Source of the DNA: an uncultured Methanosarcinales archaeon
GTDB lineage: Archaea; Nanobdellota; Nanobdellia; Woesearchaeales; JACPBV01
NCBI GenBank assembly: GCA_964492935.1
Contig: CAZBLF010000029.1
Location: 1 to 13,851, forward strand
Length of the DNA: 13,851 nt
Direction of reading: 5' to 3'
The notes beneath the pieces are model-generated. The model was not told the origin of the DNA. It searched no databases and saw nothing but the letters and a program-made list of their open reading frames with translations. Of this stretch, positions 87 through 13,851 are shown piece after piece. Each line of letters opens with the position of its first letter. Within the stretch, counting starts at the first letter, position 1. The position numbers were made by a program, and so were the translations under genes.

Positions 87-108
87 GTGCTTTTAGAGTG
101 AACCTTAC

Positions 109-116
109 TTTATAAA
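109..116 (-). promoter_or_regulatory. Archaeal-type TATA box (TTTATAAA, perfectly palindromic) for the leftward methyltransferase gene
   Basis: Its 5' T at 116 is 30 nt upstream of the ATG at 86, the same spacing as at three other units in this window. An AAAAG BRE-like flank precedes it on the minus strand. Being palindromic, it could also fire rightward. Confidence 0.45.
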
Positions 117-168
117 CTTTTGTGGAGGGAAGATGTGTGTGATTCTTGATGTGACCCTACTGAGGCAC

Positions 169-205
169 GGAGCACTTATGAGCTTCCCTTGGAATCTCAT
201 GCTCC
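169..205. other. Imperfect extended hairpin or palindrome in the 212-nt divergent intergenic region
   Basis: GGAGCA(169-174) cttA TGAG(179-182) c TTCC(184-187) ctt GGAA(191-194) t CTCA(196-199) TGCTCC(200-205). This gives 14 possible base pairs with one 4-nt bulge and one 1x1 mismatch. It lies between the two divergent TATA boxes. Confidence 0.3.
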
Positions 206-258
206 TCGATGGGCGTCAGTAGGGTTACTGTAGGTTGAAACGTAAACAATAGCAAAAG

Positions 259-266
259 TTTATATA
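259..266 (+). promoter_or_regulatory. Archaeal-type TATA box (TTTATATA) for the DegT-GT2-cupin operon
   Basis: Preceded by AAAAG (BRE-like) and 40 nt upstream of the ATG at 299. It is part of a 26-nt block (259-284) nearly identical to 4191-4217. Confidence 0.5.
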
Positions 267-298
267 AACAGTTCCGTTTTTCAGAATCGATAAATACG

Positions 299-2112: not shown

Positions 2113-2483
2113 AGCTTGCGACTTTAGTAAAACCTTCGTTTACTCGTAAGGATGAACGTGGATTGTTTCAGGAAGTGCTGAATGGTGGCACGTGGAAGGT
2201 GTTGTTGCAAGGTAACATGAAACCGGGCGCCATTATGGGGAATCACTTTCATAAGAAGACTGATATTTTCTTCTTTTTGCCTTCTGGTACAGCAGATGTG
2301 TATTTGGAGCATTCTGAGACAGGAGAGAAAGAGGAATGTAAGCTAGAAGCTGAAGAGGGTATTCATATCAGTCGTCTTGTTTCTCACGCGATTAAATATA
2401 CTGCCGATAGTACCTTTATTTTGTTGAAAACTAATTTTGATGCGGACGATGAGGATCTGCACGAACATATTCTTGTAGAATAA
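2109..2483 (+). CDS. Small cupin-fold protein, FdtA/WxcM-like sugar ketoisomerase or epimerase candidate
   Basis: 124 aa. F-x-RKDERG-LFQE, then GNHFHKK followed by beta-strand-like segments (DIFFFLPSGTADVYLE), resembles the RG-x-HAHKK core of FdtA/WxcM-type cupins. It is translationally coupled to the GT2 and sits in an operon with a DegT aminotransferase. Confidence 0.55.
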   Translation: MKLATLVKPSFTRKDERGLFQEVLNGGTWKVLLQGNMKPGAIMGNHFHKKTDIFFFLPSGTADVYLEHSETGEKEECKLEAEEGIHISRLVSHAIKYTADSTFILLKTNFDADDEDLHEHILVE

Positions 2484-3158
2484 TTATTCTTTTACGGTTG
2501 AGAAGATTGTGTGTAGGTAAAATACTGTTCTTAACAGTTCTGTTGCGATGTTTAATGTATAGAACGCTAGGATGATCTGTACGTTTGCGAAGATGATGAA
2601 GGGAAATGCTACCTTGTTGAAGTCGATGAGCATGGTGAAGAGTCTTGCTGGACCTTTATTCTTTCCTTTTGCTTTCTCTAGGTTGGTTTCAGTCTTTTCG
2701 GTGTAATCGAAGACGCGTTCTCTCGCACTCGTTACTGCTAGAAGCGTTAGGGCTGCGATCAGGATGTAGATGCTGTTGAAATTGTTCCTGAAATGGAAGA
2801 ATAGACCTAGGGCTAGTGCTACATAGAAGATTCTATTTACTAGAAGATCTCCGATTGCATCGTACAGGAAGCCTTTCTTTGAGAATTTCTTGGTGATTCT
2901 CGCAATTGCGCCATCGGCACAGTCTAATAGGATACCTAGTTCGAATAGGATTACGGTTGGAAGTTTAAGGAACATGAATGCGGTTACAATGCTTGCTAGT
3001 TTTGCTAGAAGGTTTAAGGTGGTAACTTGGTTAGGGGTTGCTCTTAGTTTTAGGAGAACCCAGGTTAATGGTACTGAGAGATAGCGGTACATCATCTGGT
3101 GGATTAACTTGTAGTGCCACGGCTTCGCGCTTTTCTTTAAGATGTATTTGAAATTCAT
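2484..3158 (-). CDS. CDP-alcohol phosphotransferase family integral membrane protein (canonical motif)
   Basis: 224 aa and hydrophobic throughout. It carries the complete signature D-x2-DG-x2-AR-x8-G-x3-D-x3-D as LLDCADGAIARITKKFSKKGFLYDAIGD (nt 2847-2924). Confidence 0.85.
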   Translation of the reverse strand: MNFKYILKKSAKPWHYKLIHQMMYRYLSVPLTWVLLKLRATPNQVTTLNLLAKLASIVTAFMFLKLPTVILFELGILLDCADGAIARITKKFSKKGFLYDAIGDLLVNRIFYVALALGLFFHFRNNFNSIYILIAALTLLAVTSARERVFDYTEKTETNLEKAKGKNKGPARLFTMLIDFNKVAFPFIIFANVQIILAFYTLNIATELLRTVFYLHTIFSTVKE

Positions 3159-3181
3159 AGGTTACCTGGATTTGTGTGTTT

Positions 3182-4093
3182 TTATAAGGGTTTTCCTTCT
3201 AGCAGTGCGTTTATTGCCATGGCCCATCCTTCGGGACCGGTGCCATCTACTCTGATTATTGAAGAATTTTCTGGAAGTTCTACATGTCCTTTAGGCTTTG
3301 CCACTTGGTAGCCTTTGTCTGCCCATTCTTCCATGCCGTGATCGCTTTGGGAATCGCCTAGTCCAACGGTAAAAACTCCTTGAGGGTATTTGATTTCGTA
3401 CATTTGCTTGAGGGCTTTACACGCCTCTTCTTTTGAAACTTCATTGTTATCGCGTCCCTTACCGACTAAGTGGTAGCGGCCTCGACTCCATGTATATCCT
3501 GCATCCTCTAATTCCTGTTTGAATCGCGCTATTTTTTCTTCGTCATCGTCGAAGCCTCCGAATTCGGTTCCAATCTTTACGGGCAGATGATATTCTTTCA
3601 TTTGATCTAGCTTTGCTAGCTCTAGGTCATAGCCGACGTCTCTGCCTAGTTCTTGGGGAGACATCTCCGTATAAAGTCTGATTTCAAATGGGAGTTCTTT
3701 TTGTAGTTCATGTAGGAATCTCGTTGTTTCGTCGACTCCAATGTTGTATTCTAGAAGGTTGTATGTTGCATTATCTTCGACTCTCTCCTCATCGGCGAGC
3801 CAAGGTCTAAATTCTTCATGCTCTTCTAACTCACTACGACTTAGAAAATCTTCTGGGACGTAGATGACGCTTCCGTTTTCTGCTATTAATGGAAAGGGAT
3901 TATCTAATCTTCGAATGTCTAGGAGTGCGAGAGCTGCTGATTTGCCGGTAACGAAAGATATGGGGATTTCAGCTTCAATAGCTGCATCGTAGGCGTCTCG
4001 TGAGAGATCGTCTTTAGCGGTGCGATCGTCTATGTAGCAACCATCCATATCGGTAAGAATGATTGTTTGTTCAAGATCTTGGTCTGCATGCAT
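3182..4093 (-). CDS. HAD superfamily phosphatase, subclass IIB-like (MPGP/Cof-like), very acidic
   Basis: 303 aa. Motif I is ILTDMDGCYIDD, motif II FVTGKS and motif IV GLGDSQSDHGM, with a large cap insertion between motifs II and IV. A 23-nt gap separates it from the downstream CDP-alcohol transferase. Confidence 0.7.
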   Translation of the reverse strand: MHADQDLEQTIILTDMDGCYIDDRTAKDDLSRDAYDAAIEAEIPISFVTGKSAALALLDIRRLDNPFPLIAENGSVIYVPEDFLSRSELEEHEEFRPWLADEERVEDNATYNLLEYNIGVDETTRFLHELQKELPFEIRLYTEMSPQELGRDVGYDLELAKLDQMKEYHLPVKIGTEFGGFDDDEEKIARFKQELEDAGYTWSRGRYHLVGKGRDNNEVSKEEACKALKQMYEIKYPQGVFTVGLGDSQSDHGMEEWADKGYQVAKPKGHVELPENSSIIRVDGTGPEGWAMAINALLEGKPL

Positions 4094-4115
4094 GTAATTT
4101 ACACATGAAAAAGCC

Positions 4116-4123
4116 TATATAAA
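4116..4123 (-). promoter_or_regulatory. Archaeal-type TATA box (TTTATATA on the minus strand) for the HAD/CDP-alcohol-transferase operon
   Basis: Its 5' T at 4123 is exactly 30 nt upstream of the ATG at 4093. An AGAAAGA purine flank lies upstream on the minus strand. Confidence 0.5.
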
Positions 4124-4190
4124 TCTTTCTCTTTTTACTACTTGATAATGGTACTTATATTTCATAGTGCTCCTGTTATGTTTAGGTACA

Positions 4191-4198
4191 TTTATAAA
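4191..4198 (+). promoter_or_regulatory. Archaeal-type TATA box (TTTATAAA) for the nucleotidyltransferase/kinase-fusion/RLP operon
   Basis: Exactly 30 nt upstream of the ATG at 4221, which supports 4221 rather than 4167 as the start. It begins a block (4191-4217) nearly identical to 259-284. Confidence 0.55.
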
Positions 4199-4220
4199 AA
4201 CAGTTTTGTTCTTTCAGGGG

Positions 4221-4937
4221 ATGAAAGCGTTAATTTTAGCGGCTGGAATGGGAAGTCGATTGATGCCGTATACTGAGGAAACTCCGAAGTGTTTGTTGAA
4301 GGTGGGGGAGGTTCCGATGTTGGCTTTGCAGTTGAAGGCATTGCATGCTATTGGGATTCGCGATATTGTTGTGGTTACTGGTTATTTGAAAGAGAAAGTA
4401 GAGGAAGTTGTTGGAGATCAGGGGAAATGTATCTTTAATCCTGATTTTGAGACTCATGGGATTTTGCATTCGTTTTTAGCTGCTAAAGAAGAGGTGTATG
4501 GCGAGGAATTTTTGTATTTGGCAGGAGATATTGTGTATAATGCTAAGATTCCGTCTTTGATTGCTTCTGGTAAAGGAGATATTGCTATTGGTGTTGATCG
4601 GAAGCCTTGCAACGAGGAGCATTCAAAAGTGTTAGTTGAGAACGGCCAGGTTGTGGAGATGGCTAAGACGATTGTTTGTGGGGAAGCTACTGGTGAATTT
4701 GCTCATATTGCTAAGTTTTCTAAGGAAGGCAGTAAGGCGTTCTTTGATGTGATTGAGGAAACGCTTGCTGAGAAAGATGCGCGTGCGTATATGATGGATG
4801 CGTTGAACAAGGTTCGCGACAAGGGTTTGGTTATGCTTCCGGTGTACACTGACGGGTATGCTCGGATTGAAATTGATTTTATTGAGGATTTAGAGAAAGC
4901 CCGAAAGATGGTGTTTCATGAAACTGACGCTCGTTAG
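4221..4937 (+). CDS. Sugar- or alcohol-phosphate nucleotidyltransferase (LicC/IPCT/PntC-like)
   Basis: MKALILAAGMGSRLMPYTEETPKCLLKV is the G-x-G-(S/T)-R...PK nucleotide-binding signature. It is 238 aa from the ATG at 4221. The track ORF begins at 4167, but that extension would start upstream of the TATA box. It overlaps the next gene by 20 nt. Confidence 0.8.
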   Translation: MKALILAAGMGSRLMPYTEETPKCLLKVGEVPMLALQLKALHAIGIRDIVVVTGYLKEKVEEVVGDQGKCIFNPDFETHGILHSFLAAKEEVYGEEFLYLAGDIVYNAKIPSLIASGKGDIAIGVDRKPCNEEHSKVLVENGQVVEMAKTIVCGEATGEFAHIAKFSKEGSKAFFDVIEETLAEKDARAYMMDALNKVRDKGLVMLPVYTDGYARIEIDFIEDLEKARKMVFHETDAR

Positions 4938-6309
4938 ACACGGTCAGACTGAGGAAAATGCTTCTGGTATTATTCAGGGACAGAGTCGTGGAACGTTAAG
5001 TGAAAAGGGGAAGCTGCAGGCTGCGGAGCTTGGGGAGACTTTGAAGAATCATTCTTTCGATGTGATTATTTCTAGTAGTTCTAATCGTGCCAAGAATACG
5101 GCGTCGGTGATTGGTGAGGGGCATGATGTTGCATTGGAGTTGTCTGATGCAATTCGTGAGAGAAATTTGGGTGTTGCAGAGGGAACTGCTGTAGGGGCGG
5201 CACATGGGTTGATGAAGGAGACGCCGGAAGGTGGGGAATCGTTAGCTCAGGTTAGGGATCGTGCCGAGGCGTTTGCTCGAGAATTGCTTGCAAAAGAATA
5301 TTCTTCTTGTTTGATTGTATCGCATAATGGATTTCTTGCGCATTTGATGGGATTTTTTCAGGCAAAGGCAATTGATTCTTGTTTAGACTTTAAAATTGAA
5401 CATGGTGAAGTTTTGGAGATTGATATTTCTCTCGTTGATGTGGGGAATTTGAATTATGTATACAAGATTACGCTGAATGGAATTACTGGATATTTGAAGC
5501 AGGCTCTGACAGAGTATCGTAAATCGTTTCCTGGTGAGAAAGAGTTGCCGTTGAAAGAGGATCGATTGGCGAATGAGGTTGCTGCTCTGAAGCAATTGAA
5601 TGCTTTGGATGTTTCTGGTTTTACCTTTCCTTCGGTGTTGTCGTATGATGCTGCCCATAATCTAGTGTTGTTATCTGAAATTACGGGAAAAACATTGCTC
5701 TCTTATTTCTTGGAGGGTGTTTTTGATGAAGCGCATGCTTCTGCTGCGGGAGATGCTCTGGGATTGTTGCATGCGGTGGATGCTGCTGGCATTCGAAAGG
5801 ATGATGATGCTTTCTTTAAGGAGATTGTTCGGTTTCGAAGCGTGGTGAGTAGTCATGCGCTAGGTTCGGAGCATCAGAAATTGATTGCTGAACGGTTTGA
5901 TACTATTTTTGCTGATGGTTTTCCAAAATCTTTGTTGATTGGTGATTTTTCTCCTAAGCAGTTGTTGTTATCTGGAGGTTCTGTGGGTGTTGTGGACTTG
6001 GAATTTGCTTGTAAAGGTGATGCGGCATTCGATGTTGGCTTTTTCTTGGCGCACTATGTGCTGGAGGAGATGAAGGGTGCTGATTCTGGTGCGGTAGAGG
6101 GTGCTATGAAGGCCTTTATTGAGGCGTATGGGAAGCATGTTGCTATTGAAGGGATGAAATCAAGGATACTTTTTTATATGGGAGCGGGATTACTCAATAG
6201 AGTCGATGGCACGGTTCGGGGTGGCGATATCAATGAAGCAATTGTCGCTGCTATCAGGGAACGATCGATAAAAATTATTAGTGGGGAAGTAACCTATGGA
6301 ATGGGATAA
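4918..6309 (+). CDS. Bifunctional fusion: N-terminal histidine phosphatase (PGM/cofactor-dependent mutase family) plus C-terminal MtnK-like (APH/choline-kinase fold) kinase
   Basis: 463 aa. Residues 1-~168 carry LVRHGQTEEN (RHG motif), SSSSNRAKNTA (conserved Arg) and IVSHNGFL (second His). From residue ~175, VGNLNYVYKI and GYLKQAL match the MtnK GDGNLNYVF and IIKQAV motifs. IGDFSPKQLLL is the catalytic-loop Asp, VVDLEFACKGDAAFDVGFF the D-x-EF metal loop, and MGAGLLNRVDG matches the MtnK C-terminal helix. Confidence 0.8.
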   Translation: MKLTLVRHGQTEENASGIIQGQSRGTLSEKGKLQAAELGETLKNHSFDVIISSSSNRAKNTASVIGEGHDVALELSDAIRERNLGVAEGTAVGAAHGLMKETPEGGESLAQVRDRAEAFARELLAKEYSSCLIVSHNGFLAHLMGFFQAKAIDSCLDFKIEHGEVLEIDISLVDVGNLNYVYKITLNGITGYLKQALTEYRKSFPGEKELPLKEDRLANEVAALKQLNALDVSGFTFPSVLSYDAAHNLVLLSEITGKTLLSYFLEGVFDEAHASAAGDALGLLHAVDAAGIRKDDDAFFKEIVRFRSVVSSHALGSEHQKLIAERFDTIFADGFPKSLLIGDFSPKQLLLSGGSVGVVDLEFACKGDAAFDVGFFLAHYVLEEMKGADSGAVEGAMKAFIEAYGKHVAIEGMKSRILFYMGAGLLNRVDGTVRGGDINEAIVAAIRERSIKIISGEVTYGMG

Positions 6310-7495
6310 CGACATAACAATAACTTATTTTATCAAGAAGGCGATTGCCACGAAGAAATCGTTGCGCGAGGTTGTAGATACCATTGCAGCAGGGATTAGT
6401 ATTGGGACGCTACAGGTAGCATATGATGCTCATACCACTAAATGGCACGCGGATAAGGCTGCGAATCCTAATGCGTATAAGGCAGAGGTTGAGGAGTATA
6501 GCGTATTGCCGATGGATGAGAATTCTGCTGTTGTGAAAATTAAGGTTTGTAGTGATTTAATGGATTTGAAGCATTGTTCTTTCGCGACGTTGCTCTCTTT
6601 TATTGCTGGCGATGTTTTTGGGACGTCGTATGACGCGGAAGAGATTCGCGTTTTGGATATTGACTTTTCTGAAAAGGCATTGGCTCAGTTTAAGGGTCCT
6701 AAATTCGGAAGTGAAGGTATTCGGAAGATGCTTGGATTGGAGAATAGTGATCGGCCGTTGCAGGCTTTGATTTTGAAACCGAATACCGGTCAGCCAAGTT
6801 CTCATTACGCCGATATTGCTTACAAGGCTGCATTAGGTGGGATGGATTTCATCAAGGATGACGAATTAAACATTAATCCTACGTCGTGTCCGTTTGAGGA
6901 GCGTGTCAAGATGATTTGTGATGCGTTGAAAGAGGCTGAAAAGGAGACGGGCAAGAAAACTATCTATGCTCCAAATATTTCGTTCCGACCTGAATATATG
7001 AAGGAATATGCTCGAAAAGCTATTGCGGCTGGAGCTAGTGCATTGATGATGAATATTGTGTATGTGGGTATGACTGCGGTGCAGATGATTGCTGAGGATC
7101 CGGAATTTAATGTTCCTATTTACGTGCATCGAGCAGGACATGATTTCTTTACGAGAAATGAGGTAGGTATTGCGATGCCGGTTATGACTAAGTTTTTCCG
7201 ATTGTCGGGAGCTGACATTATGTCGGTGGGTCCGGTCTTTGGTGGTTTAGAGACGAAGGAAACGGTTAAGAAGACGTATGAAGCAGTTAATGCGGATATG
7301 TATGGCATTAACAAGTCTCTTGCTGTTGTTTCTCGATCAAGTAAGGATATTGTTCAGGGTACTGTGGATTGGTTGCAGACGAAGAATGTGATGTTCTTGG
7401 CGGATGGCGGAATTTACAACGGTCCTGAAGGTATTACTGCTACAACCAAAGAGATGAAAGAGACGATTGAGAAAGTTCAGATTCAATCTGCTTGA
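6296..7495 (+). CDS. RuBisCO large-subunit-like protein (form IV RLP), not a carboxylase
   Basis: 399 aa. DRPLQALILKPNTGQ...GGMDFIKDDELN aligns by eye to GRPLLGCTIKPKLGL...GGLDFTKDDENV. VHRAGH corresponds to IHRAMH, and RLSGADIMSVGPVFGGLE to MSGGDHIHSGTVVGKLE. The K334 and H327 equivalents are lost. It overlaps the upstream kinase fusion by 14 nt. Confidence 0.85.
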   Translation: MEWDNDITITYFIKKAIATKKSLREVVDTIAAGISIGTLQVAYDAHTTKWHADKAANPNAYKAEVEEYSVLPMDENSAVVKIKVCSDLMDLKHCSFATLLSFIAGDVFGTSYDAEEIRVLDIDFSEKALAQFKGPKFGSEGIRKMLGLENSDRPLQALILKPNTGQPSSHYADIAYKAALGGMDFIKDDELNINPTSCPFEERVKMICDALKEAEKETGKKTIYAPNISFRPEYMKEYARKAIAAGASALMMNIVYVGMTAVQMIAEDPEFNVPIYVHRAGHDFFTRNEVGIAMPVMTKFFRLSGADIMSVGPVFGGLETKETVKKTYEAVNADMYGINKSLAVVSRSSKDIVQGTVDWLQTKNVMFLADGGIYNGPEGITATTKEMKETIEKVQIQSA

Positions 7496-8313
7496 TTTTT
7501 TAATTTTTTATAGTTTTCTTCTGGAAGTAATTGGGATGCTAGGGTTGCGTCGCGTCCGTGGAAGTCGGAGCCGCCTGAAAGTAATAAGTTTAGTTTTTCT
7601 GCTTCCTTTTTTATGGTAGATGCGGAATATTTTTCGAATGCATCTGCACGATAGGGATAGAAGTGTTCTATTGCGTCTCCGCCTGCCTTTTTGAAATCGT
7701 GGATGAGTGTTTTGGCATCGGTATTGCTGTAGACGAGGGGATGTGCTAGTATTGCTAAGCCGCGAGCATTATGAATTGCATCGATTGCTTGTTTGAAGGT
7801 GGTTGTTTGCTTTCTGTTTTTGTAGGCAGGTTGTCCATTGCCGATGAGGGTATCAAATACCTGGTCAGGGGTTTCTAGTTGTTTGTTGTTTTTCATGAGG
7901 ATTGATGCGATGTGTGGGCGGCCGATCGTTCCTTTCGCTAGTTTGTGTACTTCCTCGTACGTTATCTTGTAGCCGAGCTTTTGTAATGCTTGTATCATGT
8001 CTTTCTTTTGTACTATTCTCGCTTTTTGGGCTTTGTCAACGATTTCTAGAATGTCTTTGTGGTTTGGGTCGATGAAGAGACCGAGAATGTGGATATCGGA
8101 GTGTTGTGGATGATCTGCGGTTATTTCGATGCCCGGAACTACGGTGAGTGTTGTGTTCTTGGCTGCTTTTTGTGCAGCTGCGATGCCTGCGGTGGTGTCG
8201 TGGTCGGTTATTCCGATGACATCTAGGCGTTCTTTTAGCGCTGCATCAATTAATTCTTTTGGAGAAAGCTTGCCGTCGGAGGCGGTGGTATGAGTATGGA
8301 GATCGATGCGCAT
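7483..8313 (-). CDS. PHP-domain metal-dependent phosphoesterase (TrpH/YciV-like); candidate 3',5'-bisphosphonucleotide (pAp) phosphatase
   Basis: 276 aa. MRIDLHTHTTASDG is the PHP His-x-His start, followed by ITDHDT, the ILAHP His and GGSDFHG. It is the last gene of the Sat-CysC operon, with only 3 nt between it and cysC. Confidence 0.75.
   Translation of the reverse strand: MRIDLHTHTTASDGKLSPKELIDAALKERLDVIGITDHDTTAGIAAAQKAAKNTTLTVVPGIEITADHPQHSDIHILGLFIDPNHKDILEIVDKAQKARIVQKKDMIQALQKLGYKITYEEVHKLAKGTIGRPHIASILMKNNKQLETPDQVFDTLIGNGQPAYKNRKQTTTFKQAIDAIHNARGLAILAHPLVYSNTDAKTLIHDFKKAGGDAIEHFYPYRADAFEKYSASTIKKEAEKLNLLLSGGSDFHGRDATLASQLLPEENYKKLKNQAD
7496..7510 (+). terminator. Oligo-T tract (TTTTTTAATTTTTTA), a candidate archaeal intrinsic terminator for the RLP operon
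   Basis: It follows the RLP stop codon (7493-7495) directly. The same bases on the other strand encode the Lys-rich C-terminus (KKLKN) of the convergent PHP gene. Confidence 0.35.
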
Positions 8314-8316
8314 GCC

Positions 8317-8832
8317 TTAACAAATTCCCTTGTCTTTTAAAGCTTGTCTTAGTTGTTGTGCTGCTTGTTCTGGTGTTGTGTTTTGGGTGTCTATTGTGAC
8401 TTCGGGTTGCTCAGGTTCCTCGTAAGGTACATTTAATCCTACGAAGTCTTTTATCTCTCCTGATCTGAATTTTTTATAGTGACCTTTGACATCTCGTTCC
8501 TCGCAAATTTCGATTGGGCATTTGATGTAGACTTCGATGAATTTTTTTATCTGATTTCTGGCATATTCTCTAATTGCCTTGGTGGGAGAGATGACGCAGG
8601 CTATGCTCAGGATGTGGTCGCTTGTTAAGAGTGCACAAATATCTGCTACTCTTGTGATGTGCTTGTCGCGATCTTCTTTTGTATAGCCGAGATCCTTAGA
8701 AATGGTTTTTCTGACGATATCTCCATCTAATAGAGCTACCTGGATGTTTTCTTTTCTTAATTGCTCTACTAATAGCTCGGCAATGGTGGATTTTCCTGCT
8801 CCGGAAAGCCCGGTAAACCAGATTGTGGTCAT
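8317..8832 (-). CDS. cysC: Adenylylsulfate (APS) kinase
   Basis: 171 aa. IWFTGLSGAGKSTIA is the P-loop, LDGDIVR the substrate motif, and SPTKAIRE follows. ATGA overlap with sat. Confidence 0.92.
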   Translation of the reverse strand: MTTIWFTGLSGAGKSTIAELLVEQLRKENIQVALLDGDIVRKTISKDLGYTKEDRDKHITRVADICALLTSDHILSIACVISPTKAIREYARNQIKKFIEVYIKCPIEICEERDVKGHYKKFRSGEIKDFVGLNVPYEEPEQPEVTIDTQNTTPEQAAQQLRQALKDKGIC

Positions 8833-9971
8833 ATGAGGACCTCGTGAGATAATTCTTGTGCAACTTCTTTGCGCATGAACTCTTTTGGTGGAATCTCTTT
8901 CTTAGACAACATGTCACGGATGAGTGTTCCAGAGATTTCGATTTGTTCCTCTACAGGATGCGGACACGTCTTTTCTGTTGCGATGGAATCACAGTGTTTG
9001 CAGAAGTAGGGTCCTTTTAGTTTGAGGATTTCAATGCCTAGATCATCGAATTTGTCGGTGAACTCCTGGGCTTCGTACTTTTTGTAAAATGAGCCTACAC
9101 CTGCGTGGTCGCGACCTACAATGAAATGGGTGCATCCGAAGTTTTTACGGATGATTGCGTGGAAGACGGCCTCTCGGGGTCCGGCATAACGCATCTGGGT
9201 AGTGAGTGCCGATAAGATTGCACTGTTTTTCGGATAATAGTGTTCGATTAAGGTTTTGTAGCCGTTGATGACGGCTTCTGGAGTGTAGTCGCCCTTCTTT
9301 TTCCAGCCGATTAGGGGATGGAGTAGGATTCCATCTGTTAATTCTAATGCTGCTTTTTGCAAATATTCGTGTGCACGGTGAGGTACGTTTCTTGTCTGGA
9401 AGCCGGTGATTGTTTTCCAGCCTCGCTTCTCGAACTCTGCTCGGGTTTGTTTAGGTGTTAGTTGTACGCCGGGTACAATTGGATCGGGTTCGCCAATCAT
9501 ATCGATTTCTCCTGCAAGCATGATATTGCCGGAATCGTGAAGCTTTTTTACTCCAGGATGGGTTAGATCTTGAGTTCCGAAAATGGCTTGGGATGCTTCG
9601 GTGAGATTAGCCGTATAGATTTGCTCGAGATGCATCTGGGCAATAAGCTTATCATTTTCGTCGAATAGATTGATGTCGTCGCCCTCCTTGACGTTTTCTG
9701 GTACCTTTTGCAGTGGACAGGTCACCGGAACGGTGAACGGGAGATTGTTTTCTAGTCTCGACTCGTGCAGAATGTTGAGAAAGTCGTTCTGAGTTACAAA
9801 TCCTTGTAGCGGTGAAAAAGCTCCTTGTGCAATATTTGCAATATCTAGGATCGTTTCTCGGCTGATGGTGATTTTGGGTAGTTCGTTTGCCTGTGCGATT
9901 GCCTTTTCTCTTCTTTCTCCGGTGAGTAATCGGTCAATTAATTCATTTCCATGTGGTTTATTTGCTTTCAT
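8829..9971 (-). CDS. sat: Sulfate adenylyltransferase (ATP sulfurylase), short homo-oligomeric type
   Basis: 380 aa. GFQTRNVPHRAHE corresponds to the QxRNPxHxxH motif, and HFIVGRDHAGVG is also present. A C-terminal C-x2-C-x8-C-x-H cluster (FCKHCDSIATEKTCPH) resembles the Cys/His zinc site of Thermus/archaeal-type enzymes. Confidence 0.92.
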   Translation of the reverse strand: MKANKPHGNELIDRLLTGERREKAIAQANELPKITISRETILDIANIAQGAFSPLQGFVTQNDFLNILHESRLENNLPFTVPVTCPLQKVPENVKEGDDINLFDENDKLIAQMHLEQIYTANLTEASQAIFGTQDLTHPGVKKLHDSGNIMLAGEIDMIGEPDPIVPGVQLTPKQTRAEFEKRGWKTITGFQTRNVPHRAHEYLQKAALELTDGILLHPLIGWKKKGDYTPEAVINGYKTLIEHYYPKNSAILSALTTQMRYAGPREAVFHAIIRKNFGCTHFIVGRDHAGVGSFYKKYEAQEFTDKFDDLGIEILKLKGPYFCKHCDSIATEKTCPHPVEEQIEISGTLIRDMLSKKEIPPKEFMRKEVAQELSHEVLI

Positions 9972-11646
9972 TTGTGCCCCCGTGTTGTTTGAAAAATCCT
10001 AGGAATTCATCTACCTTGTGGACTTCCACCATATTGATGATCTTTCGGTGATTAGGAAATACTGCTCCTGCGAGGACGATGGTGTCTTGCTCCTCGATTA
10101 ATTGATTCTTGATACAGGCCATGATTGCCTCCTTCTTTTGCTCGACGGATCCCGAATTATCTATTTCATGCTCGACTTGTAATGGGATGACTCCTCTTAG
10201 GAGTTTCAATCTTCTTACGATTTTTATGTTGCTTGTTAGTGCTATAATGGGGAATGAGCTATTGAATCTCGCTAGCATTCTCGCGGAAAAGCCGCCATGA
10301 GTGATACAGAGGAGCTTGTCGATATGCGTATGCTTTGAGAGATCGATAATCATCTTTGAGCAGGCGTCGCTGGGATCGGTGGACTCGTTATCATTCTCTA
10401 AATCGAGAATTGGCGTTTCCTCCTCGCATTCTTGAATGACTGTTGACATTACTTTGACTGCTTGTTCCGGGTTTGCGCCTATCGCCGTTTCACCGGAGAG
10501 CATGACTGCGGACGCGCCATCCATGACTGCGGACGCGATATCTGCTACCTCTGATTTCTTCGGTAGTGGTTGCGTTACCATCGAATGGAGCATTTCTGTA
10601 GCGACGATGACTGGCTTTGCTCTTTTATTTCCTTCTTCGATGATATGCTTCTGAAGCATAGGGACTTTTTGGAAGGAGACTTCGCTTCCTAGGTCTCCCC
10701 GATCGATCATGATGCCATAGGCTGCTTCGATGATGCCGGAAACATTTTTGATTGCTTCCTGATTCTCTACTTTTGCAATGATTTTGATTGTTGATCCCTC
10801 TAACTTTTTTTCTACCGTTCGAACTTCGTCTGCAGTATTGACGAATGATAGCCCGACGAAATCTACTTGTTCTTTTTTTGCGAATGCTATACACTTGTTT
10901 TCTTTTTCCTGTATAGATTCGCGGCTGAGGATCGCTCCGGGAATATTGACGCCTTTGCCTTCTTGTAGGACTGCATCATGCTGGACGAGGCAGGTTACGT
11001 TGTTTCCATCGATTGATTGTACGGTAATTGCGATTGAGCCGTCATCCATGAGCAACTCTTGCCGAGGTTTGACGTGTTTTGGGAATTCAGGTAGATCGAC
11101 ACCGATAGCATCTCCTTCTGGAGTGGTTGAGAGGATGATTGTGGAGTTGGCTTTGAGGATGCGAGGCTCTTTTAATCCGCGAACGCGTACTTTGGGGCCA
11201 GGGATGTCTAATAGAATAGGAATAGTTGCGTCTACTTCGCGTACTTTCTTGATGATGTCGCTATGTTGTTCGGGATTGCCGTGGGATGAATTTATTCTTG
11301 CTACATCCATCCCTGCATTCTTGAGTTTGGTGATTTCTTCAATGGAATTGGTTACAGGACCGATCGTTGCGATGATTTTTGTCTTCTTGATCATGATTTG
11401 CCTTGTAGATCCGATTTCGGCGAGAATTTCTTTAGTTGTGGCAGACTCGTGATTGAGAACATAGAAGATTGCGTTTCCTAAGGACTCTGCTTTGACTACG
11501 GACTCGTCTTCCAGTTCCTTGAGAATTTTGTGGGCACTTCCTACGCTGATGGAAAGAGTTTTGGCGATTTGATTAATCGTTAATCGGCGAGATGCATTTC
11601 TATCTAGAAACGAAATGATCTTTTGGGTGTTTTTGGAGACTGCCAT
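9958..11646 (-). CDS. Fusion of an N-terminal winged helix-turn-helix domain (~aa 1-80) to a full-length pyruvate kinase (A, B and C domains)
   Basis: 562 aa. The wHTH is LTINQIAKTLSISVGSAHKILKELEDESVVKAESLGNAIFYVL. The PK motifs are KTKIIATIGP, ARINSSHG, DIPGPKVRV, KIIAKVENQEA, IMIDRGDLGSEV, VIVATEMLHSM and VMLSGETAIG, with a C-domain ITHGGFSARMLARF...PIIALT. An internal Met85 (nt 11394-11392) sits at the domain junction. It is the first gene of the sat-cysC-PHP operon, with a 14-nt overlap with sat. Confidence 0.85.
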   Translation of the reverse strand: MAVSKNTQKIISFLDRNASRRLTINQIAKTLSISVGSAHKILKELEDESVVKAESLGNAIFYVLNHESATTKEILAEIGSTRQIMIKKTKIIATIGPVTNSIEEITKLKNAGMDVARINSSHGNPEQHSDIIKKVREVDATIPILLDIPGPKVRVRGLKEPRILKANSTIILSTTPEGDAIGVDLPEFPKHVKPRQELLMDDGSIAITVQSIDGNNVTCLVQHDAVLQEGKGVNIPGAILSRESIQEKENKCIAFAKKEQVDFVGLSFVNTADEVRTVEKKLEGSTIKIIAKVENQEAIKNVSGIIEAAYGIMIDRGDLGSEVSFQKVPMLQKHIIEEGNKRAKPVIVATEMLHSMVTQPLPKKSEVADIASAVMDGASAVMLSGETAIGANPEQAVKVMSTVIQECEEETPILDLENDNESTDPSDACSKMIIDLSKHTHIDKLLCITHGGFSARMLARFNSSFPIIALTSNIKIVRRLKLLRGVIPLQVEHEIDNSGSVEQKKEAIMACIKNQLIEEQDTIVLAGAVFPNHRKIINMVEVHKVDEFLGFFKQHGGTNESK

Positions 11647-11647
11647 A

Positions 11648-11669
11648 TTAGTGAATGATTATTCACTTA
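11648..11669. promoter_or_regulatory. Inverted repeat (candidate operator) directly upstream of the HTH-PK start codon
   Basis: TTAGTGAAT (11648-11656), a gatt spacer, then ATTCACTTA (11661-11669). The core AGTGAAT/ATTCACT is a perfect 7-nt inverted repeat. It lies between the minus-strand TATA (11681-11688) and the ATG (11646). Confidence 0.5.
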
Positions 11670-11680
11670 ATTTGTGCTTG

Positions 11681-11688
11681 TTTATAAA
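11681..11688 (-). promoter_or_regulatory. Archaeal-type TATA box (TTTATAAA, palindromic) for the HTH-PK/sat/cysC/PHP operon
   Basis: 42 nt upstream of the ATG at 11646. The implied ~10-15 nt leader contains the inverted repeat. Confidence 0.45.
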
Positions 11689-11714
11689 GACATCGCTTTT
11701 TGAGACGTTATATC

Positions 11715-11723
11715 ATTCACTTA
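11715..11723 (+). promoter_or_regulatory. Third copy of the 9-mer ATTCACTTA, upstream of the rightward promoter
   Basis: An exact direct repeat of 11661-11669, 54 nt away. It ends 16 nt upstream of the TATA at 11739. Confidence 0.4.
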
Positions 11724-11738
11724 CTATTTTCCCATATG

Positions 11739-11746
11739 TTTATATA
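11739..11746 (+). promoter_or_regulatory. Archaeal-type TATA box (TTTATATA) for the CDP-alcohol-transferase-like/GT4 operon
   Basis: 29 nt upstream of the ATG at 11768. This supports 11768 rather than 11615 as the start. Confidence 0.5.
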
Positions 11747-11767
11747 GCGTGTGCTGCTCATAGGGGT

Positions 11768-12436
11768 ATGGTTAAGATTCCTGCTAAGTATGATCGAAGT
11801 GTGGTGATGCGTGTTTTCGCGCGTCCGGTAGGGAATTTGATGATTCCTCTTTTTATGAAGCTCGGTATTACAGGAAATCAACTTTCGATCTTCAATATCT
11901 TTTTTACGTTGTTTAGTTTTCTGTTGATTGGGACTGATAGTTTAGTCATTGGTGCTTTGTTGTTGCAATTTACTATTATTTTTGATACGATGGATGGTAC
12001 TTTGTCTAAAATGAGAAAGCAGAAGTCGCTGTATGGGCGGTATCTAGAAAAGATTTGGCATAATGCGATTGTTCCTTTCTTGTTCGTTGCGCTTGGATGT
12101 AATGTGACTTTGAACAACGGAGATAGTATGTATTGTTTGATTGGATTCTTCATTACGGGATCGATCTTGGTCGTTAATCTTATTGAATTTATTCGTCGGT
12201 ATACGTTTCAGGTTGCTCCTAAGGCACTGGATGCTGATCAGACGGTGAAATCTGAGAAATCGTTGTTGCAGATTGTGGTGCGAGCTATCGGAGATACTTC
12301 GTACATCTTCATGTACGTGTTGGTGTTTGGATATGCTGGTTACCTGGATATGCTGGTGTTGTTTTACGGAGTCTTTTACGGATTGTTGTTTGTTGTCAAA
12401 TTCTTTCAGTTTCTTGGAAAACCAAAGGGTTTTTAA
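11768..12436 (+). CDS. CDP-alcohol phosphotransferase-like integral membrane protein with a degenerate signature motif
   Basis: 222 aa from the ATG at 11768; the track start at 11615 would overlap the PK gene and both promoters. It is hydrophobic throughout. The motif DTMDGTLSKMRKQKSLYGRYLEKIWH (nt 11984-12061) reads D-x2-DG-x2-SK-x8-G-x3-E-x3-H, so AR is replaced by SK, the third Asp by Glu and the fourth Asp by His. Confidence 0.6.
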   Translation: MVKIPAKYDRSVVMRVFARPVGNLMIPLFMKLGITGNQLSIFNIFFTLFSFLLIGTDSLVIGALLLQFTIIFDTMDGTLSKMRKQKSLYGRYLEKIWHNAIVPFLFVALGCNVTLNNGDSMYCLIGFFITGSILVVNLIEFIRRYTFQVAPKALDADQTVKSEKSLLQIVVRAIGDTSYIFMYVLVFGYAGYLDMLVLFYGVFYGLLFVVKFFQFLGKPKGF

Positions 12437-12459
12437 TGGTTTGAGGACTTTAACGACGT

Positions 12460-13482: not shown

Positions 13483-13487
13483 AGGTT

Positions 13488-13515: not shown

Positions 13516-13851
13516 ATGTTATCGTGTAAGGCATTTTTCGAATTACTCGTCAAGGATGTAGGTTTCTTTACAGGTGTTCCTGATTCTTTGCTGAAAGATT
13601 TTTGTGGTTATGTTGCTGATCACGCAGAGAAGCATGTGATTGCTGCGAATGAGGGTAATGCTGTTGGTATTGCAGCCGGATATCATCTTGCTTCGGGTAA
13701 GGTGCCCTTAGTGTATATGCAGAATTCTGGTCAGGGAAACGCGGTGAATCCGTTGTTATCGTTGGCAGATCCGAAAGTGTATGGTATTCCTATGCTCTTG
13801 CTTGTTGGGTGGAGAGGCGAACATGGTGTTGCAGATGAAACTCAACATGTT
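13516..13851 (+). CDS. ppd: Partial CDS (N-terminal 112 codons; runs off the window end): thiamine-diphosphate-dependent phosphonopyruvate decarboxylase
   Basis: Not in the ORF track because it has no stop. My translation is [154 protein letters not shown] and NPLLSLADP are the hallmarks I recognise from Ppd/AepY N-terminal TPP pyrimidine-binding domains. Confidence 0.72.

What the first reader, a model, noticed from the sequence alone, without database searches (positions are those of the whole stretch)
6296..7495. RLP active-site pattern keeps the metal/carbamate core but lacks the carboxylation residues
This rests on by-eye alignment to spinach RbcL numbering. Retained residues are T65, K175 (K161 here, nt 6776-6778), K201-D203-E204 as KDDE (K187-E190, nt 6854-6865), and H294-R295-H298 as HRAGH (H278-H282, from nt 7127). 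Replaced residues are E60->G, N123->D (GDVFG), K177->N (KPN), H327->S, K334->G (FGGLE) and S379->D (ADGGIY). Loss of K334 and H327 argues against CO2 fixation. Retention of the carbamylatable Lys and its acidic ligands argues for Mg-dependent enolisation or isomerisation chemistry. I do not recognise the N123->D plus K177->N combination from the characterised MtnW (N123->K) type, though I cannot verify this without an alignment.
Basis: partly seen in the sequence, partly recalled or inferred. Interest (0 to 1): 0.7.

Follow-up and report, generated by a model that had tools for sequence, protein, structure and literature searches.

The report
New RuBisCO-like enzyme, sugar-activation operon
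This gene encodes a rare, non-CO2-fixing relative of RuBisCO with a previously untabulated active-site pattern that always sits beside a kinase, and usually beside a phosphatase and a nucleotidyltransferase, so it probably makes an unusual activated sugar phosphate for the cell surface rather than fixing carbon.

Summary
The ORF at 6296-7495 (+) is a real RuBisCO-like protein (RLP) under strong purifying selection. Kept: T65, K175, K201/D203/E204, H294/R295/H298. Changed: E60G, N123D, K177N, H327S, K334G. One call is wrong. 'ADGGIY' is the G403/G404 loop (G403D), not S379. S379 is retained, followed by a clade-invariant Arg (G380R).

The protein belongs to a rare monophyletic clade of about 13 clusters among 1.84 billion representatives. 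Its signature matched no other sequence among about 270 nearest relatives, no curated NCBIfam family, and no solved RLP whose residues I could read (C. tepidum only).

In the 9 genomic settings of clade members that I read, and in one of two sister-group loci, the RLP lies next to a kinase. The kinases belong to three unrelated families. A phosphatase is usually present (two unrelated families), as is a nucleotidyltransferase, and often a CDP-alcohol phosphotransferase or LicD. These settings are surface-glycan or phosphonate islands of a probable marine Nanoarchaeota genome, other metagenomic contigs and one phage-like contig.

Best reading: a Mg2+/carbamate-dependent enolising isomerase or epimerase feeding a nucleotide-activated sugar-phosphate pathway. 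The function is inferred, not shown. I rate it a new variant of a known kind.

The parts
6296..7495 (+). RuBisCO-like protein, 399 aa, member of a rare clade. Signature: G60, T65, D123, K175, N177, K201, D203, E204, H294, R295, H298, D299, non-K334, S379, R380, D403, Y407.
   Evidence: Pfam PF00016 E 7.8e-37. AF2 model with pLDDT 92.2 and pTM 0.91. Foldseek TM 0.87 to form III 2CWX. dN/dS 0.029 against the L207 orthologue. Signature.
6854..6865 (+). KDDE: K187 (= K201, carbamylatable Lys), D189 (= D203) and E190 (= E204), the Mg2+ ligands.
   Evidence: K187, D189 and E190 are invariant in all 13 clade representatives.
6776..6784 (+). K161-P162-N163: K175 retained, K177->N.
6611..6613 (+). D106 at the N123 position (GDVFG). 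Invariant in the clade. This is the position where MtnW carries Lys.
6392..6409 (+). G33 (E60->G) to T38 (T65 retained) in 'AGISIGT'.
7127..7144 (+). HRAGHD: H278 (= H294), R279 (= R295), H282 (= H298), and D283, a clade-invariant Asp at position 299. In RuBisCO, R295 and H298 are the distal (P2) phosphate site.
7223..7246 (+). S310 (H327->S, this subclade only) to G317 (K334->G) in 'SVGPVFGG', followed by L318 (= L335).
   Evidence: Ungapped alignment to 8DHT..
7331..7339 (+). S346-R347-S348 = S379 retained, G380->R (clade-invariant Arg), G381->S.
   Evidence: Strand E342-348 in the model.
7403..7417 (+). D370-G371-G372-I373-Y374 = G403->D (clade-invariant), G404 kept, L407->Y (clade-invariant).
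4918..6309 (+). Fusion of a histidine phosphatase (His_Phos_1, RHG at residue 7) with an MtnK-like kinase (GNLNYV at residue 176, GDFSPK at 342, DLEF at 360). It overlaps the RLP start by 14 nt. The two domains are separate adjacent genes in L001 and L086.
   Evidence: Pfam E 3e-35 and 2.7e-14. TIGR01767 MTRK E 2e-12. A kinase profile hits B. subtilis MTR kinase 2OLC at E 5.4e-7. Orthologues are 42-45% identical. Motifs.
4167..4937 (+). Sugar-phosphate or alcohol-phosphate nucleotidyltransferase (NTP_transferase / NTP_transf_3). Overlaps the next gene by 20 nt.
   Evidence: It is 48% identical to the gene at the same position in L001 and L086.
3182..4093 (-). HAD-IIB phosphatase, mannosyl-3-phosphoglycerate-phosphatase-like.
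2484..3158 (-). CDP-alcohol phosphatidyltransferase family membrane protein.
   Evidence: Pfam E 1e-10. Resembles the DIPPS part of NF041135 and archaetidylinositol phosphate synthase.
11615..12436 (+). Second CDP-alcohol phosphatidyltransferase family protein. The true start is probably further downstream: gene callers give 222-261 aa.
13516..13851 (+). 5' part of a phosphonopyruvate decarboxylase gene. It begins the adjacent phosphonate module (context, not part of the RLP operon).

Best explanation
The gene encodes a non-carboxylating RuBisCO-superfamily enzyme.

Proposed mechanism (inferred):
1. K187 is carbamylated and, with D189 and E190, holds Mg2+.
2. A phosphorylated ketose, most simply a pentulose phosphate or bisphosphate, binds with one phosphate in the retained R279/H282 site. 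Its other end sits in a remodelled pocket formed by T38 of the partner subunit, R347, D370 and Y374.
3. A proton next to the carbonyl is removed, giving a Mg2+-stabilised enediolate.
4. E60 and K334 are missing, so the enediolate is not carboxylated. It is reprotonated to give an isomer or epimer.

Proposed pathway (inferred from gene context): the enzyme is one step of a short operon-encoded route. An anomeric MtnK-like kinase and a histidine phosphatase, fused here into one protein, reposition the phosphate. A nucleotidyltransferase then makes the nucleotide-activated product, probably CDP-linked. CDP-alcohol phosphotransferases or glycosyltransferases of the same island put it on a surface glycan or lipid.

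The logic is that of NDP-heptose synthesis (isomerase, kinase, phosphatase, nucleotidyltransferase) or of MupP/AmgK/MurU.

Shown: fold, residue pattern, purifying selection, gene neighbourhoods. Inferred: carbamylation, substrate class, reaction type, order of steps.
For: Fold and family:
- Pfam match.
- AF2 model with pLDDT 92.
- Foldseek TM 0.87 to form III RuBisCO and 0.86 to the C. tepidum RLP.

Residues:
- K175, K201, D203, E204, H294 and R295 are invariant in 13 clade representatives.
- E60 and K334 are absent in all of them.
- D123, D299, R380, D403 and Y407 are clade-invariant novelties.

Selection: dN/dS = 0.029 at dS 0.63.

Operon: the nucleotidyltransferase, phosphatase-kinase and RLP genes overlap by 20 and 14 nt. 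The same four functions appear in the same order in L001 and L086, at 42-69% identity.

Non-orthologous replacement in other clade members:
- L002: RLP, NTP_transferase-like, HAD, P-loop kinase.
- L215: HAD, RLP, P-loop kinase, NTP_transferase, CDP-OH_P_transf.
- L085, phage-like: RLP, P-loop kinase, CTP_transf_like.
- Sister group L218: thymidylate-kinase-like, RLP, NTP_transferase.
- Sister group L008: NTP_transferase-HAD fusion and two CDP-OH_P_transf.

Kinase: its nearest solved relative is MTR kinase, an anomeric C1 kinase.

The surrounding island encodes glycosyltransferases, a Wzx flippase and a phosphonate-tailoring module.

Established knowledge, from my memory: R. rubrum RuBisCO mutants at K329 (= K334) and E48 (= E60) lose carboxylation but keep RuBP enolisation.
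Against: - No biochemical data exist for any clade member.
- The substrate is unknown, and no reductase, aldolase or other partner is conserved that would narrow it down.
- D370 places a carboxylate where RuBisCO binds the C1 phosphate. I could not inspect coordinates, so I do not know whether R347 and D370 pair or bind ligand.
- Three clade members (P0122, P0138, P0129) have a kinase but no visible nucleotidyltransferase. They sit beside DUF5919, TCAD2 or a PRTase on short contigs. This may mean a different use of the kinase-RLP pair.
- Several kinase and nucleotidyltransferase assignments in other loci rest on weak Pfam hits (E 1e-3 to 1e-6).
- Nucleotide specificity (CTP or UTP) is not determined.
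Confidence: 0.5

Rival explanations
1. It is a variant of methionine or 5'-deoxyadenosine salvage. The MtnK-like kinase would phosphorylate 5-methylthioribose or 5-deoxyribose. The RLP would act like MtnW (enolase) or the R. rubrum RLP (isomerase). The phosphatase would play the MtnX role.
For: - The kinase domain is MtnK-like: TIGR01767 E 2e-12, PDB 2OLC E 5.4e-7 with the GNLNYV motif, and JGI names a cluster member '5-methylthioribose kinase'.
- Kinase, RLP and phosphatase all occur in the Bacillus pathway (established knowledge).
- B12-radical SAM genes, which produce 5'-deoxyadenosine, lie nearby in L001 and L008.
Against: - No MtnA, MtnB, MtnD or MtnP was seen in any locus shown.
- The RLP has D, not K, at position 123. 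It keeps R295/H298, which MtnW has lost, and has lost the G381/G403 phosphate loop that MtnW keeps.
- MtnW models score far below their cut-offs.
- Other clade members use unrelated P-loop kinases.
- The co-conserved nucleotidyltransferase has no role in salvage.
Confidence: 0.15
2. It acts inside the neighbouring phosphonate pathway, for example on a phosphonate analogue of a sugar or keto-acid phosphate. This would parallel the glycolysis-like enzymes of phosphinothricin biosynthesis.
For: - The same genome has, 6-10 kb downstream, phosphonopyruvate decarboxylase (its orthologue in the related contig L207 scores 494.8 bits on TIGR03297, cut-off 312.5), Fe-ADH, and a CyTase-PEP mutase fusion with the EDKxxxxxNS motif.
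- L001 has Fe-ADH and a B12-rSAM whose best hit is a P-methyltransferase family.
- Nucleotidyl activation is typical of phosphonate tailoring (PMC6697681).
Against: - The phosphonate module (Ppm, Ppd, Fe-ADH, CyTase) is complete for CMP-hydroxyethylphosphonate without an RLP.
- No phosphonate genes appear in L002, L085, L215 or L218.
- The RLP operon has its own nucleotidyltransferase.
Confidence: 0.1
3. It has a sulfur-metabolism role like that proposed for the C. tepidum IV-Photo RLP, linked to the adjacent sulfate-activation genes.
For: - ATP sulfurylase, APS kinase and a PHP-type pAp phosphatase lie immediately downstream on the opposite strand.
- An APS kinase is also next to the module in L086.
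- K177->N is shared with IV-Photo.
Against: - The PAPS genes are transcribed convergently.
- They are absent from L001, L002, L085, L215 and L218.
- Every other diagnostic position differs from IV-Photo: 123 is D against E, 295/298/327 are R/H/S against F/I/I, and 334 is G against R.
- PAPS genes are common in islands for sulfated glycans.
Confidence: 0.07
4. It is a genuine form III RuBisCO of the archaeal nucleoside/AMP pathway, and the substitutions are alignment artefacts.
For: - Its closest solved folds and several of its best sequence hits outside the clade are form III enzymes.
- It keeps R295/H298 as form III does.
- The host is probably a DPANN archaeon, a group known for form III-type RuBisCO (PMC6389311).
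Against: - K334->G, E60->G, N123->D and K177->N are reproduced in four independent alignments and an ungapped HMMER alignment. K334, E60 and N123 are changed in every clade member, with N123->D invariant; position 177 is N or D.
- rubisco_III scores 198 bits against a cut-off of 497.
- No AMP phosphorylase or R15P isomerase lies within 10 kb.
Confidence: 0.02

Closest known systems
Form III RuBisCO (Thermococcus kodakarensis 1GEH/3A12, Pyrococcus horikoshii 2CWX, 8DHT)
   Same: - Best structural match, TM 0.87, and best PDB sequence match, 8DHT at E 3e-38.
- Same K175, K201/D203/E204, H294, R295, H298 and S379.
   Different: - Lacks E60, N123, K177 and K334. This protein also lacks H327.
- The C1-phosphate loop is changed: G380R, G381S, G403D.
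- No AMP-pathway genes nearby.
- 26-29% identity in the Foldseek structural alignments; 34-38% to metagenomic form III-type homologues.
MtnW / YkrW 2,3-diketo-5-methylthiopentyl-1-phosphate enolase (Geobacillus 2OEK, B. subtilis 2ZVI)
   Same: - RLP that enolises instead of carboxylating.
- E60->G in both.
- Works with an MtnK kinase and a phosphatase. An MtnK-like kinase is fused or adjacent here.
   Different: - MtnW has K at 123 (D here) and V/M at 177 (N here).
- MtnW has lost R295/H298/H327 (P, A/S, L) but keeps G381/G403/G404, the reverse of this clade.
- The NCBIfam MtnW models score 151 and 180 bits against cut-offs of 514 and 409.
IV-Photo RLP (Chlorobium tepidum 1TEL/1YKW, R. palustris RLP2 2QYG)
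   Same: - K177->N, the K175/K201/D203/E204/H294 core, and G381->S.
- Similar structural score, TM 0.86.
   Different: IV-Photo has E at 123, F/I/I at 295/298/327, R at 334, G at 379, and G/R at 403/404.
Other characterised RLPs: R. rubrum DeepYkr 5-methylthioribulose-1-P isomerase; apiose-pathway OiaX
   Same: Same superfamily, and enolate chemistry on a phosphorylated keto-sugar or keto-acid.
   Different: - OiaX model: 136 bits against a cut-off of 700.
- The DeepYkr residue pattern could not be tabulated here because its sequence and papers were not available.
- Neither is known to sit with nucleotidyltransferases.
Phage 'form IV-like' RLPs (Jaffe et al. 2019, PMC6389311)
   Same: These are RLPs on viral contigs. 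One member of the present clade (P0121) also lies on a phage-like contig.
   Different: The 38 IMG/VR viral RLPs found here have another signature: G123, K177, Q294, K295, D298, Y334, G403. They are only 24-27% identical to the window protein.
Pathway analogues: NDP-heptose route (GmhA, HddA/HldE, GmhB, HddC/HldC) and MupP/AmgK/MurU
   Same: Same set of activities in one operon: isomerase, anomeric kinase, phosphatase and nucleotidyltransferase. AmgK is an APH-family anomeric kinase paired with a MurU-type nucleotidyltransferase. The window's nucleotidyltransferase hits the MurU model at E 1.6e-18.
   Different: The isomerase role would be played by an RLP rather than a SIS-domain enzyme. None of the proteins reaches the family cut-offs. 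The comparison concerns logic, not homology.

Membership tests
RuBisCO large-subunit superfamily | C-terminal alpha/beta-barrel domain plus N-terminal domain (Pfam PF00016 and PF02788) | tested here: met
   PF00016 scores 127.6 bits (cut-off 30.1). PF02788 scores 24.7 bits (cut-off 20.7). The AF2 model matches 2CWX at TM 0.87.
RuBisCO large-subunit superfamily | Carbamylatable Lys and acidic Mg2+ ligands (K201, D203, E204), with K175 and H294 | tested here: met
   K187, D189, E190, K161 and H278. Carbamylation itself was not tested.
Bona fide RuBisCO (forms I-III) | K334 and its partner E60, needed for CO2 addition | tested here: not met
   G317 and G33. Both residues are absent in all 13 clade representatives.
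Bona fide RuBisCO (forms I-III) | N123, K177 and H327 | tested here: not met
   D106, N163 and S310. H327 is kept in the other subclades.
Bona fide RuBisCO (forms I-III) | C1-phosphate loop G380/G381 and G403/G404 | tested here: not met
   R347, S348, D370 and G371.
Bona fide RuBisCO (forms I-III) | Score above the curated family cut-off (TIGR03326 rubisco_III, NF003252) | tested here: not met
   198.2 bits against 497.45, and 193 against 438.
Bona fide RuBisCO (forms I-III) | Neighbouring PRK, or AMP phosphorylase plus R15P isomerase | tested here: not met
   None within 10 kb either side in the window or in L207, L212 and L213. The rest of the genome was not seen.
MtnW (IV-YkrW) DK-MTP-1-P enolase | Lys at position 123 (the catalytic base, from memory of Imker et al. 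2007), with the P/A/L pattern at 295/298/327 | tested here: not met
   D106, and R279/H282/S310. Named MtnW homologues P0074, P0086 and P0101 show K and P/A-S/L.
MtnW (IV-YkrW) DK-MTP-1-P enolase | Score above the curated cut-off (TIGR03332, NF007095) | tested here: not met
   151.3 bits against 513.6, and 179.5 against 409.
MtnW (IV-YkrW) DK-MTP-1-P enolase | Genomic association with mtnK, mtnA, mtnB, mtnX and mtnD | tested here: inconclusive
   An MtnK-like kinase and a phosphatase are adjacent. No MtnA, MtnB or MtnD was seen in the loci shown.
IV-Photo RLP (C. tepidum type) | Pattern E123, N177, F295, I298, I327, R334, G379, S381, R404 | tested here: not met
   Only N177 and S381 are shared.
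OiaX 3-oxo-isoapionate-4-phosphate decarboxylase | Score above the NF042437 cut-off | tested here: not met
   136.2 bits against 700.
Phage 'form IV-like' RLPs | Sequence signature of the viral clade (Q294, K295, D298, Y334, G123) | tested here: not met
IV-DeepYkr, IV-NonPhoto, IV-AMC, IV-GOS and IV-Aful clades of Tabita et al. 2007 | Clade-specific substitution tables in that review | not testable with these tools
   The review and its follow-up are not held, nor is Erb 2012. IV-GOS is environmental-only, marine, and of unknown function, so it could overlap with this clade. The GOS paper says only that N123, K177, H327 and G404 vary among GOS homologues.

The most novel reading that the evidence does not exclude
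The clade is the committed-step enzyme of an undescribed pathway in which RuBisCO's enediolate chemistry is used anabolically. A common pentulose (bis)phosphate would be turned into a rare sugar phosphate. After kinase/phosphatase repositioning of the phosphate, this sugar is CDP-activated and attached to surface glycans or lipids of DPANN archaea and marine bacteria, and the pathway is carried by at least one phage. If so, this would be, as far as my literature searches show, the first biosynthetic (glycoconjugate) role for the RuBisCO superfamily. The physiological reaction would resemble what are 'misfire' side reactions in RuBisCO, namely epimerisation or carbonyl migration of the enediolate.
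Probability: 0.4. Interest if true: 0.75.

Novelty: new variant of a known kind. Interest (0 to 1): 0.6.

Why it matters
Only a handful of RuBisCO-like protein functions are known: methionine salvage enolase, MTRu-1-P isomerase and apiose catabolism. Each has informed how carboxylation evolved from enolate chemistry.

This clade is unusual among the RLPs tabulated here because it keeps RuBisCO's distal phosphate site (R295/H298). It lacks the CO2-addition pair (E60/K334) and the C1-phosphate loop is rebuilt. That makes it a natural 'enolisation-only' version close to form III.

Its conserved partners (kinase, phosphatase, nucleotidyltransferase, CDP-alcohol transferase) give a concrete, cheap reconstitution experiment. 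They also point to an unknown activated sugar on the surfaces of DPANN archaea, whose envelope biochemistry is largely unexplored.

Tried and rejected
- **GTDB species-genome scan.** The best hit was 38% identical and no clade member was among the 80 loci kept. Absence from cultured or binned genomes is therefore not proven.
- **Metagenome scan.** Also truncated. Only L127 (= P0122) belonged to the clade.
- **Viral scan.** It returned 38 RLPs, all from a different clade.
- **Papers not held.** Tabita 2007 and 2008 and Erb 2012 could not be read. The published substitution tables for DeepYkr, NonPhoto, AMC, GOS and Aful were therefore not compared.
- **Literature searches.** Searches pairing RuBisCO-like proteins with polysaccharide biosynthesis, cytidylyltransferase, phosphonate or genome-neighbourhood terms found nothing relevant. 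Broader RLP searches were mostly noise about plant receptor-like proteins.
- **Single-sequence PDB search of the phosphatase-kinase fusion.** It found only the phosphatase half. A four-sequence kinase profile was needed.
- **Walking along contig L207.** The window's own GT4 gene was used instead.
- **PADLOC and PHROGs.** No match for the RLPs or their odd neighbours.
- **PEP mutase replacement idea.** I considered that the RLP might replace PEP mutase in phosphonate synthesis. I rejected this once a bona fide Ppm with the EDKxxxxxNS motif was found 8.5 kb downstream.
- **Pyruvate kinase in L207.** I considered that the HTH-pyruvate kinase was missing there. It is present at 94% identity and was simply not called.
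- **Model coordinates.** They are not exposed, so R347-D370 geometry could not be measured.

Full report
**1. The observation**

The window has an ORF at 6296-7495 (+) of 399 aa. It matches Pfam RuBisCO_large (E 7.8e-37) and, just above threshold, RuBisCO_large_N.

All 22 canonical residues fell at their textbook positions, and the sequence is 100% identical to PDB 8RUC/1IR1. I then ran MAFFT L-INS-i alignments with four sets:
- the 120 nearest homologues;
- 150 cluster representatives;
- viral homologues;
- metagenomic homologues.

All four give the same mapping, and the codons were verified.

| Spinach residue | Window residue | Status |
|---|---|---|
| E60 | G33 | changed |
| T65 | T38 | kept |
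| N123 | D106 | changed |
| T173 | I159 | changed |
| K175 | K161 | kept |
| K177 | N163 | changed |
| K201 / D203 / E204 | K187 / D189 / E190 | kept |
| H294 / R295 / H298 | H278 / R279 / H282 | kept |
| H327 | S310 | changed |
| K334 | G317 | changed |
| L335 | L318 | kept |
| S379 | S346 | kept |
| G380 | R347 | changed |
| G381 | S348 | changed |
| G403 | D370 | changed |
| G404 | G371 | kept |

The HMMER alignment to the form III enzyme 8DHT is ungapped through positions 123-334 and agrees.

'ADGGIY' is the beta-8 'FGGGTL' loop (G403/G404), not S379. S379 is actually retained.

**2. Is it a working gene?**

A 63-kb Tara contig carries an orthologue (L207). It is 89.5% identical in DNA but 98% identical in protein, giving dN/dS = 0.029 at dS = 0.63. 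That is strong purifying selection.

AlphaFold2 with a 77-sequence alignment gives pLDDT 92.2 and pTM 0.91. Foldseek places the model on P. horikoshii form III RuBisCO (TM 0.87) and on the C. tepidum RLP (TM 0.86).

**3. Which family?**

No curated model accepts the protein:

| NCBIfam model | Score (bits) | Cut-off (bits) |
|---|---|---|
| rubisco_III | 198 | 497 |
| MtnW (TIGR03332) | 151 | 514 |
| MtnW (NF007095) | 180 | 409 |
| OiaX | 136 | 700 |

Among 5.8 billion proteins, only an identical fragment and four relatives reach 40% identity or more. A profile search of 1.84 billion cluster representatives finds 1695 superfamily members. Only about 13 of these, plus fragments, share the signature.

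The clade signature is: G60, T65, D123, K175, N/D177, K201, D203, E204, H294, R295, H/F/Y298, D299, non-K334, S379, R380, D403, Y407.

These 13 are monophyletic in a neighbour-joining tree, with 83 of 100 bootstraps. The nearest neighbours (P0133, P0140, P0209) share D123, N177, D299, R380 and Y407 but have C at 403. A looser assemblage of D123 proteins that keep R295/H298/H327 lies around them. Deeper nodes are unsupported.

None of the other ~250 sequences tabulated has the clade pattern. The table contrasts it with the two RLP types I could read.

| Position(s) | This clade | MtnW-type | C. tepidum IV-Photo type |
|---|---|---|---|
| 123 | D | K | E |
| 177 | N/D | V/M | N |
| 295 / 298 / 327 | R / H,F,Y / H (S or A in the window subclade) | P / A,S / L | F / I / I |
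| 334 | not K (G in the window) | S | R |
| 403 | D | G | G |

MtnW-type proteins have lost the 295/298/327 site and keep G381/G403/G404. This clade does the reverse. H327->S/A occurs only in the window's own subclade.

**4. What the residues suggest**

All residues that RuBisCO uses to bind Mg2+ and make the enediolate are invariant: K175, carbamate K201, D203, E204 and H294. The pair needed to add CO2 (K334 with E60) is absent throughout the clade. From memory of the RuBisCO mutagenesis literature, K329 and E48 mutants of the R. rubrum enzyme lose carboxylation but keep enolisation.

The distal phosphate site (R295, H298, and usually H327) is kept. So is T65, whose role in RuBisCO (from memory) is to bind the C1 phosphate. 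The C1-phosphate loop, however, now carries an invariant Arg (380) and Asp (403).

The substrate is therefore a phosphorylated compound. It may still be a bisphosphate held differently at one end. I could not obtain model coordinates, so the R347/D370 geometry is unknown.

**5. Genomic context**

In the window, three genes overlap by 20 and 14 nt and so form an operon:
- a nucleotidyltransferase (4167-4937);
- a fusion of a histidine phosphatase with an APH-family kinase (4918-6309);
- the RLP (6296-7495).

The kinase carries the MtnK motif GNLNYV. A profile of four orthologues finds B. subtilis methylthioribose kinase as the best solved relative (E 5.4e-7). The NCBIfam MTRK model gives E 2e-12. 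MtnK phosphorylates the anomeric C1 hydroxyl of a furanose (established knowledge).

The same four activities appear in the same order, with phosphatase and kinase as separate genes, on two other marine contigs at 42-69% identity:
- L001 also carries LicD, a CDP-glycerol-type phosphotransferase and a B12-radical SAM enzyme.
- L086 also carries a TylF-type methyltransferase, a CDP-alcohol phosphatidyltransferase and an APS kinase.

More distant clade members have the same functions supplied by unrelated proteins.

| Locus (RLP) | Gene content around the RLP |
|---|---|
| L002 (P0005) | RLP, NTP_transferase-like, HAD phosphatase, P-loop kinase; inside a Wzx/Wzy polysaccharide cluster |
| L215 (P0125) | HAD, RLP, P-loop kinase, NTP_transferase, CDP-alcohol phosphatidyltransferase |
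| L085 (P0121) | 45-kb phage-like contig: NeuB, RLP, P-loop kinase, CTP_transf_like, acetyltransferase |
| L218 (P0140, sister group) | thymidylate-kinase-like protein, RLP, NTP_transferase |
| L008 (P0133, sister group, Nanoarchaeota MAG) | NTP_transferase-HAD fusion, second NTP_transferase, two CDP-alcohol phosphatidyltransferases, two B12-radical SAM enzymes |

In total there are three kinase families, two phosphatase families and two nucleotidyltransferase families around one RLP clade. That is the pattern expected of a conserved pathway with non-orthologous displacement. Several of the remote assignments rest on weak Pfam hits.

The logic matches NDP-heptose synthesis (isomerase, anomeric kinase, phosphatase, nucleotidyltransferase) and MupP/AmgK/MurU (established knowledge). 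The frequent CDP-alcohol transferases, LicD and CTP_transf_like point to a CDP-linked product.

**6. Exceptions**

P0122 and P0138 lie next to DUF5919, with a P-loop kinase upstream of P0122 and a possible one downstream of P0138. P0122 is followed by TCAD2, and the region carries IS elements. P0129 lies beside a P-loop protein and a phosphoribosyltransferase. No nucleotidyltransferase is visible on these short contigs.

The kinase-RLP pair is thus the most constant unit. It may be used in more than one setting. PADLOC has no match.

**7. Wider island and host**

Contigs 99.8% identical to the window continue downstream (L212/L213) with:
- a phosphonopyruvate decarboxylase, whose orthologue in the related contig L207 scores 494.8 bits on TIGR03297 against a cut-off of 312.5 (its first 112 codons are window 13516-13851);
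- an Fe-alcohol dehydrogenase;
- two sulfatase-family proteins;
- a cytidylyltransferase-PEP mutase fusion with the Ppm motif EDKVGLKKNS;
- a Wzx flippase and more glycosyltransferases.

This is a Fom1-like hydroxyethylphosphonate tailoring module of the kind described by Rice et al. 2019 (PMC6697681). It is complete without the RLP.

Upstream lie a LegC/DegT aminotransferase, a GT2 and an FdtA-like cupin. Opposite lie ATP sulfurylase, APS kinase and a PHP-type phosphatase.

The RLP gene is recorded from Tara station 137, mesopelagic. The window's GT2 shares a 90% cluster with a protein of a Nanoarchaeota MAG. Together with the Nanoarchaeota sister RLP (L008), this suggests a marine DPANN host. 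The assignment rests on MAG binning.

**8. Literature**

Jaffe et al. 2019 surveyed RuBisCO in CPR and DPANN organisms. They found only one DPANN RLP, which was IV-Photo-like, plus a divergent phage 'form IV-like' clade. The 38 IMG/VR RLPs I found fit that phage clade and differ from the present one.

Searches pairing RuBisCO-like proteins with polysaccharide biosynthesis, cytidylyltransferase or phosphonate found nothing relevant. The Tabita reviews with clade-wise substitution tables are not held. I therefore cannot exclude that the marine subclade corresponds to their function-unknown 'IV-GOS' group. The GOS paper notes only that N123, K177, H327 and G404 vary among ocean homologues.

**9. 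Verdict**

The added result is the conserved pathway context. It makes a specific, testable proposal: an enolising isomerase or epimerase in the synthesis of a nucleotide-activated sugar phosphate for surface decoration (confidence about 0.5).

Rival readings and their confidences:
- methionine or 5'-deoxyadenosine salvage, 0.15;
- a role in the phosphonate pathway, 0.10;
- a sulfur-metabolism role, 0.07;
- true form III RuBisCO, 0.02.

I class it as a new variant of a known kind, with interest 0.6.

Noticed in passing
window 13516-13851 (+), continuing in L212 11057-17296: The window ends inside a phosphonopyruvate decarboxylase gene. The same genome continues with Fe-ADH, two sulfatase-family genes and a cytidylyltransferase-PEP mutase fusion carrying the Ppm motif EDKVGLKKNS. 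This is a Fom1-like hydroxyethylphosphonate surface-tailoring module in a probable DPANN archaeon.
   Followed up: partly
L089-L126 (38 IMG/VR viral contigs, 10.8-334 kb): These contigs carry a homogeneous viral RLP clade with a different signature: G123, K175, K177, K201/D203/E204, Q294, K295, D298, H327, Y334, and an intact G381/G403/G404 loop. They are 75-82% identical to each other and 24-27% identical to the window RLP. They are probably the phage 'form IV-like' proteins of Jaffe et al. 2019. Their function is unknown.
   Followed up: partly
L085 (45-kb contig, RLP at 10001-11260): Clade member P0121 lies on a phage-like contig (HNH, holin, AAA_24, ERCC4, sigma-70 region 4). Its neighbours are NeuB, a metallo-beta-lactamase-fold protein, a P-loop kinase, a CTP_transf_like cytidylyltransferase and a GNAT. 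This looks like a phage-borne sugar-activation module.
   Followed up: partly
L209 6119-9278; L216; L217: Clade members P0122 and P0138 sit beside DUF5919 and a P-loop kinase. P0122 also sits beside TCAD2, near IS elements. P0129 sits beside a P-loop protein and a phosphoribosyltransferase. This context differs from the glycan islands and may be a conflict system. PADLOC gives no hit.
   Followed up: partly
window 9958-11646 (-): A pyruvate kinase with an N-terminal winged-helix (HTH_24/MarR-like) domain overlaps the ATP sulfurylase gene. It is conserved at 94% identity in L207, where the gene caller missed it.
   Followed up: partly
window 7483-9971 (-): A complete PAPS module is present: ATP sulfurylase, APS kinase and a PHP-family 3',5'-bisphosphate nucleotidase-like protein. 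No recognisable sulfotransferase lies in the window or within 10 kb. An APS kinase also neighbours the RLP module in L086.
   Followed up: no
window 4918-6309 (+): The histidine phosphatase and MtnK-like kinase are fused in this lineage and in L207/L212-L214. They are separate adjacent genes in L001 and L086. The fusion suggests consecutive steps.
   Followed up: yes
P0126, P0132, P0150, P0154, P0204, P0232, P0247: A wider, loosely related set of uncharacterised RLPs has E60, D123, S177, an intact R295/H298/H327 site, H at 335, an intact G381/G403 loop and no K334. The only context seen was uninformative, on 3-kb contigs.
   Followed up: no
window 1-13851: GC skew is positive along the whole window whatever the coding strand: 0.02-0.15 over minus-strand genes and 0.3-0.4 over plus-strand genes.
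   Followed up: no
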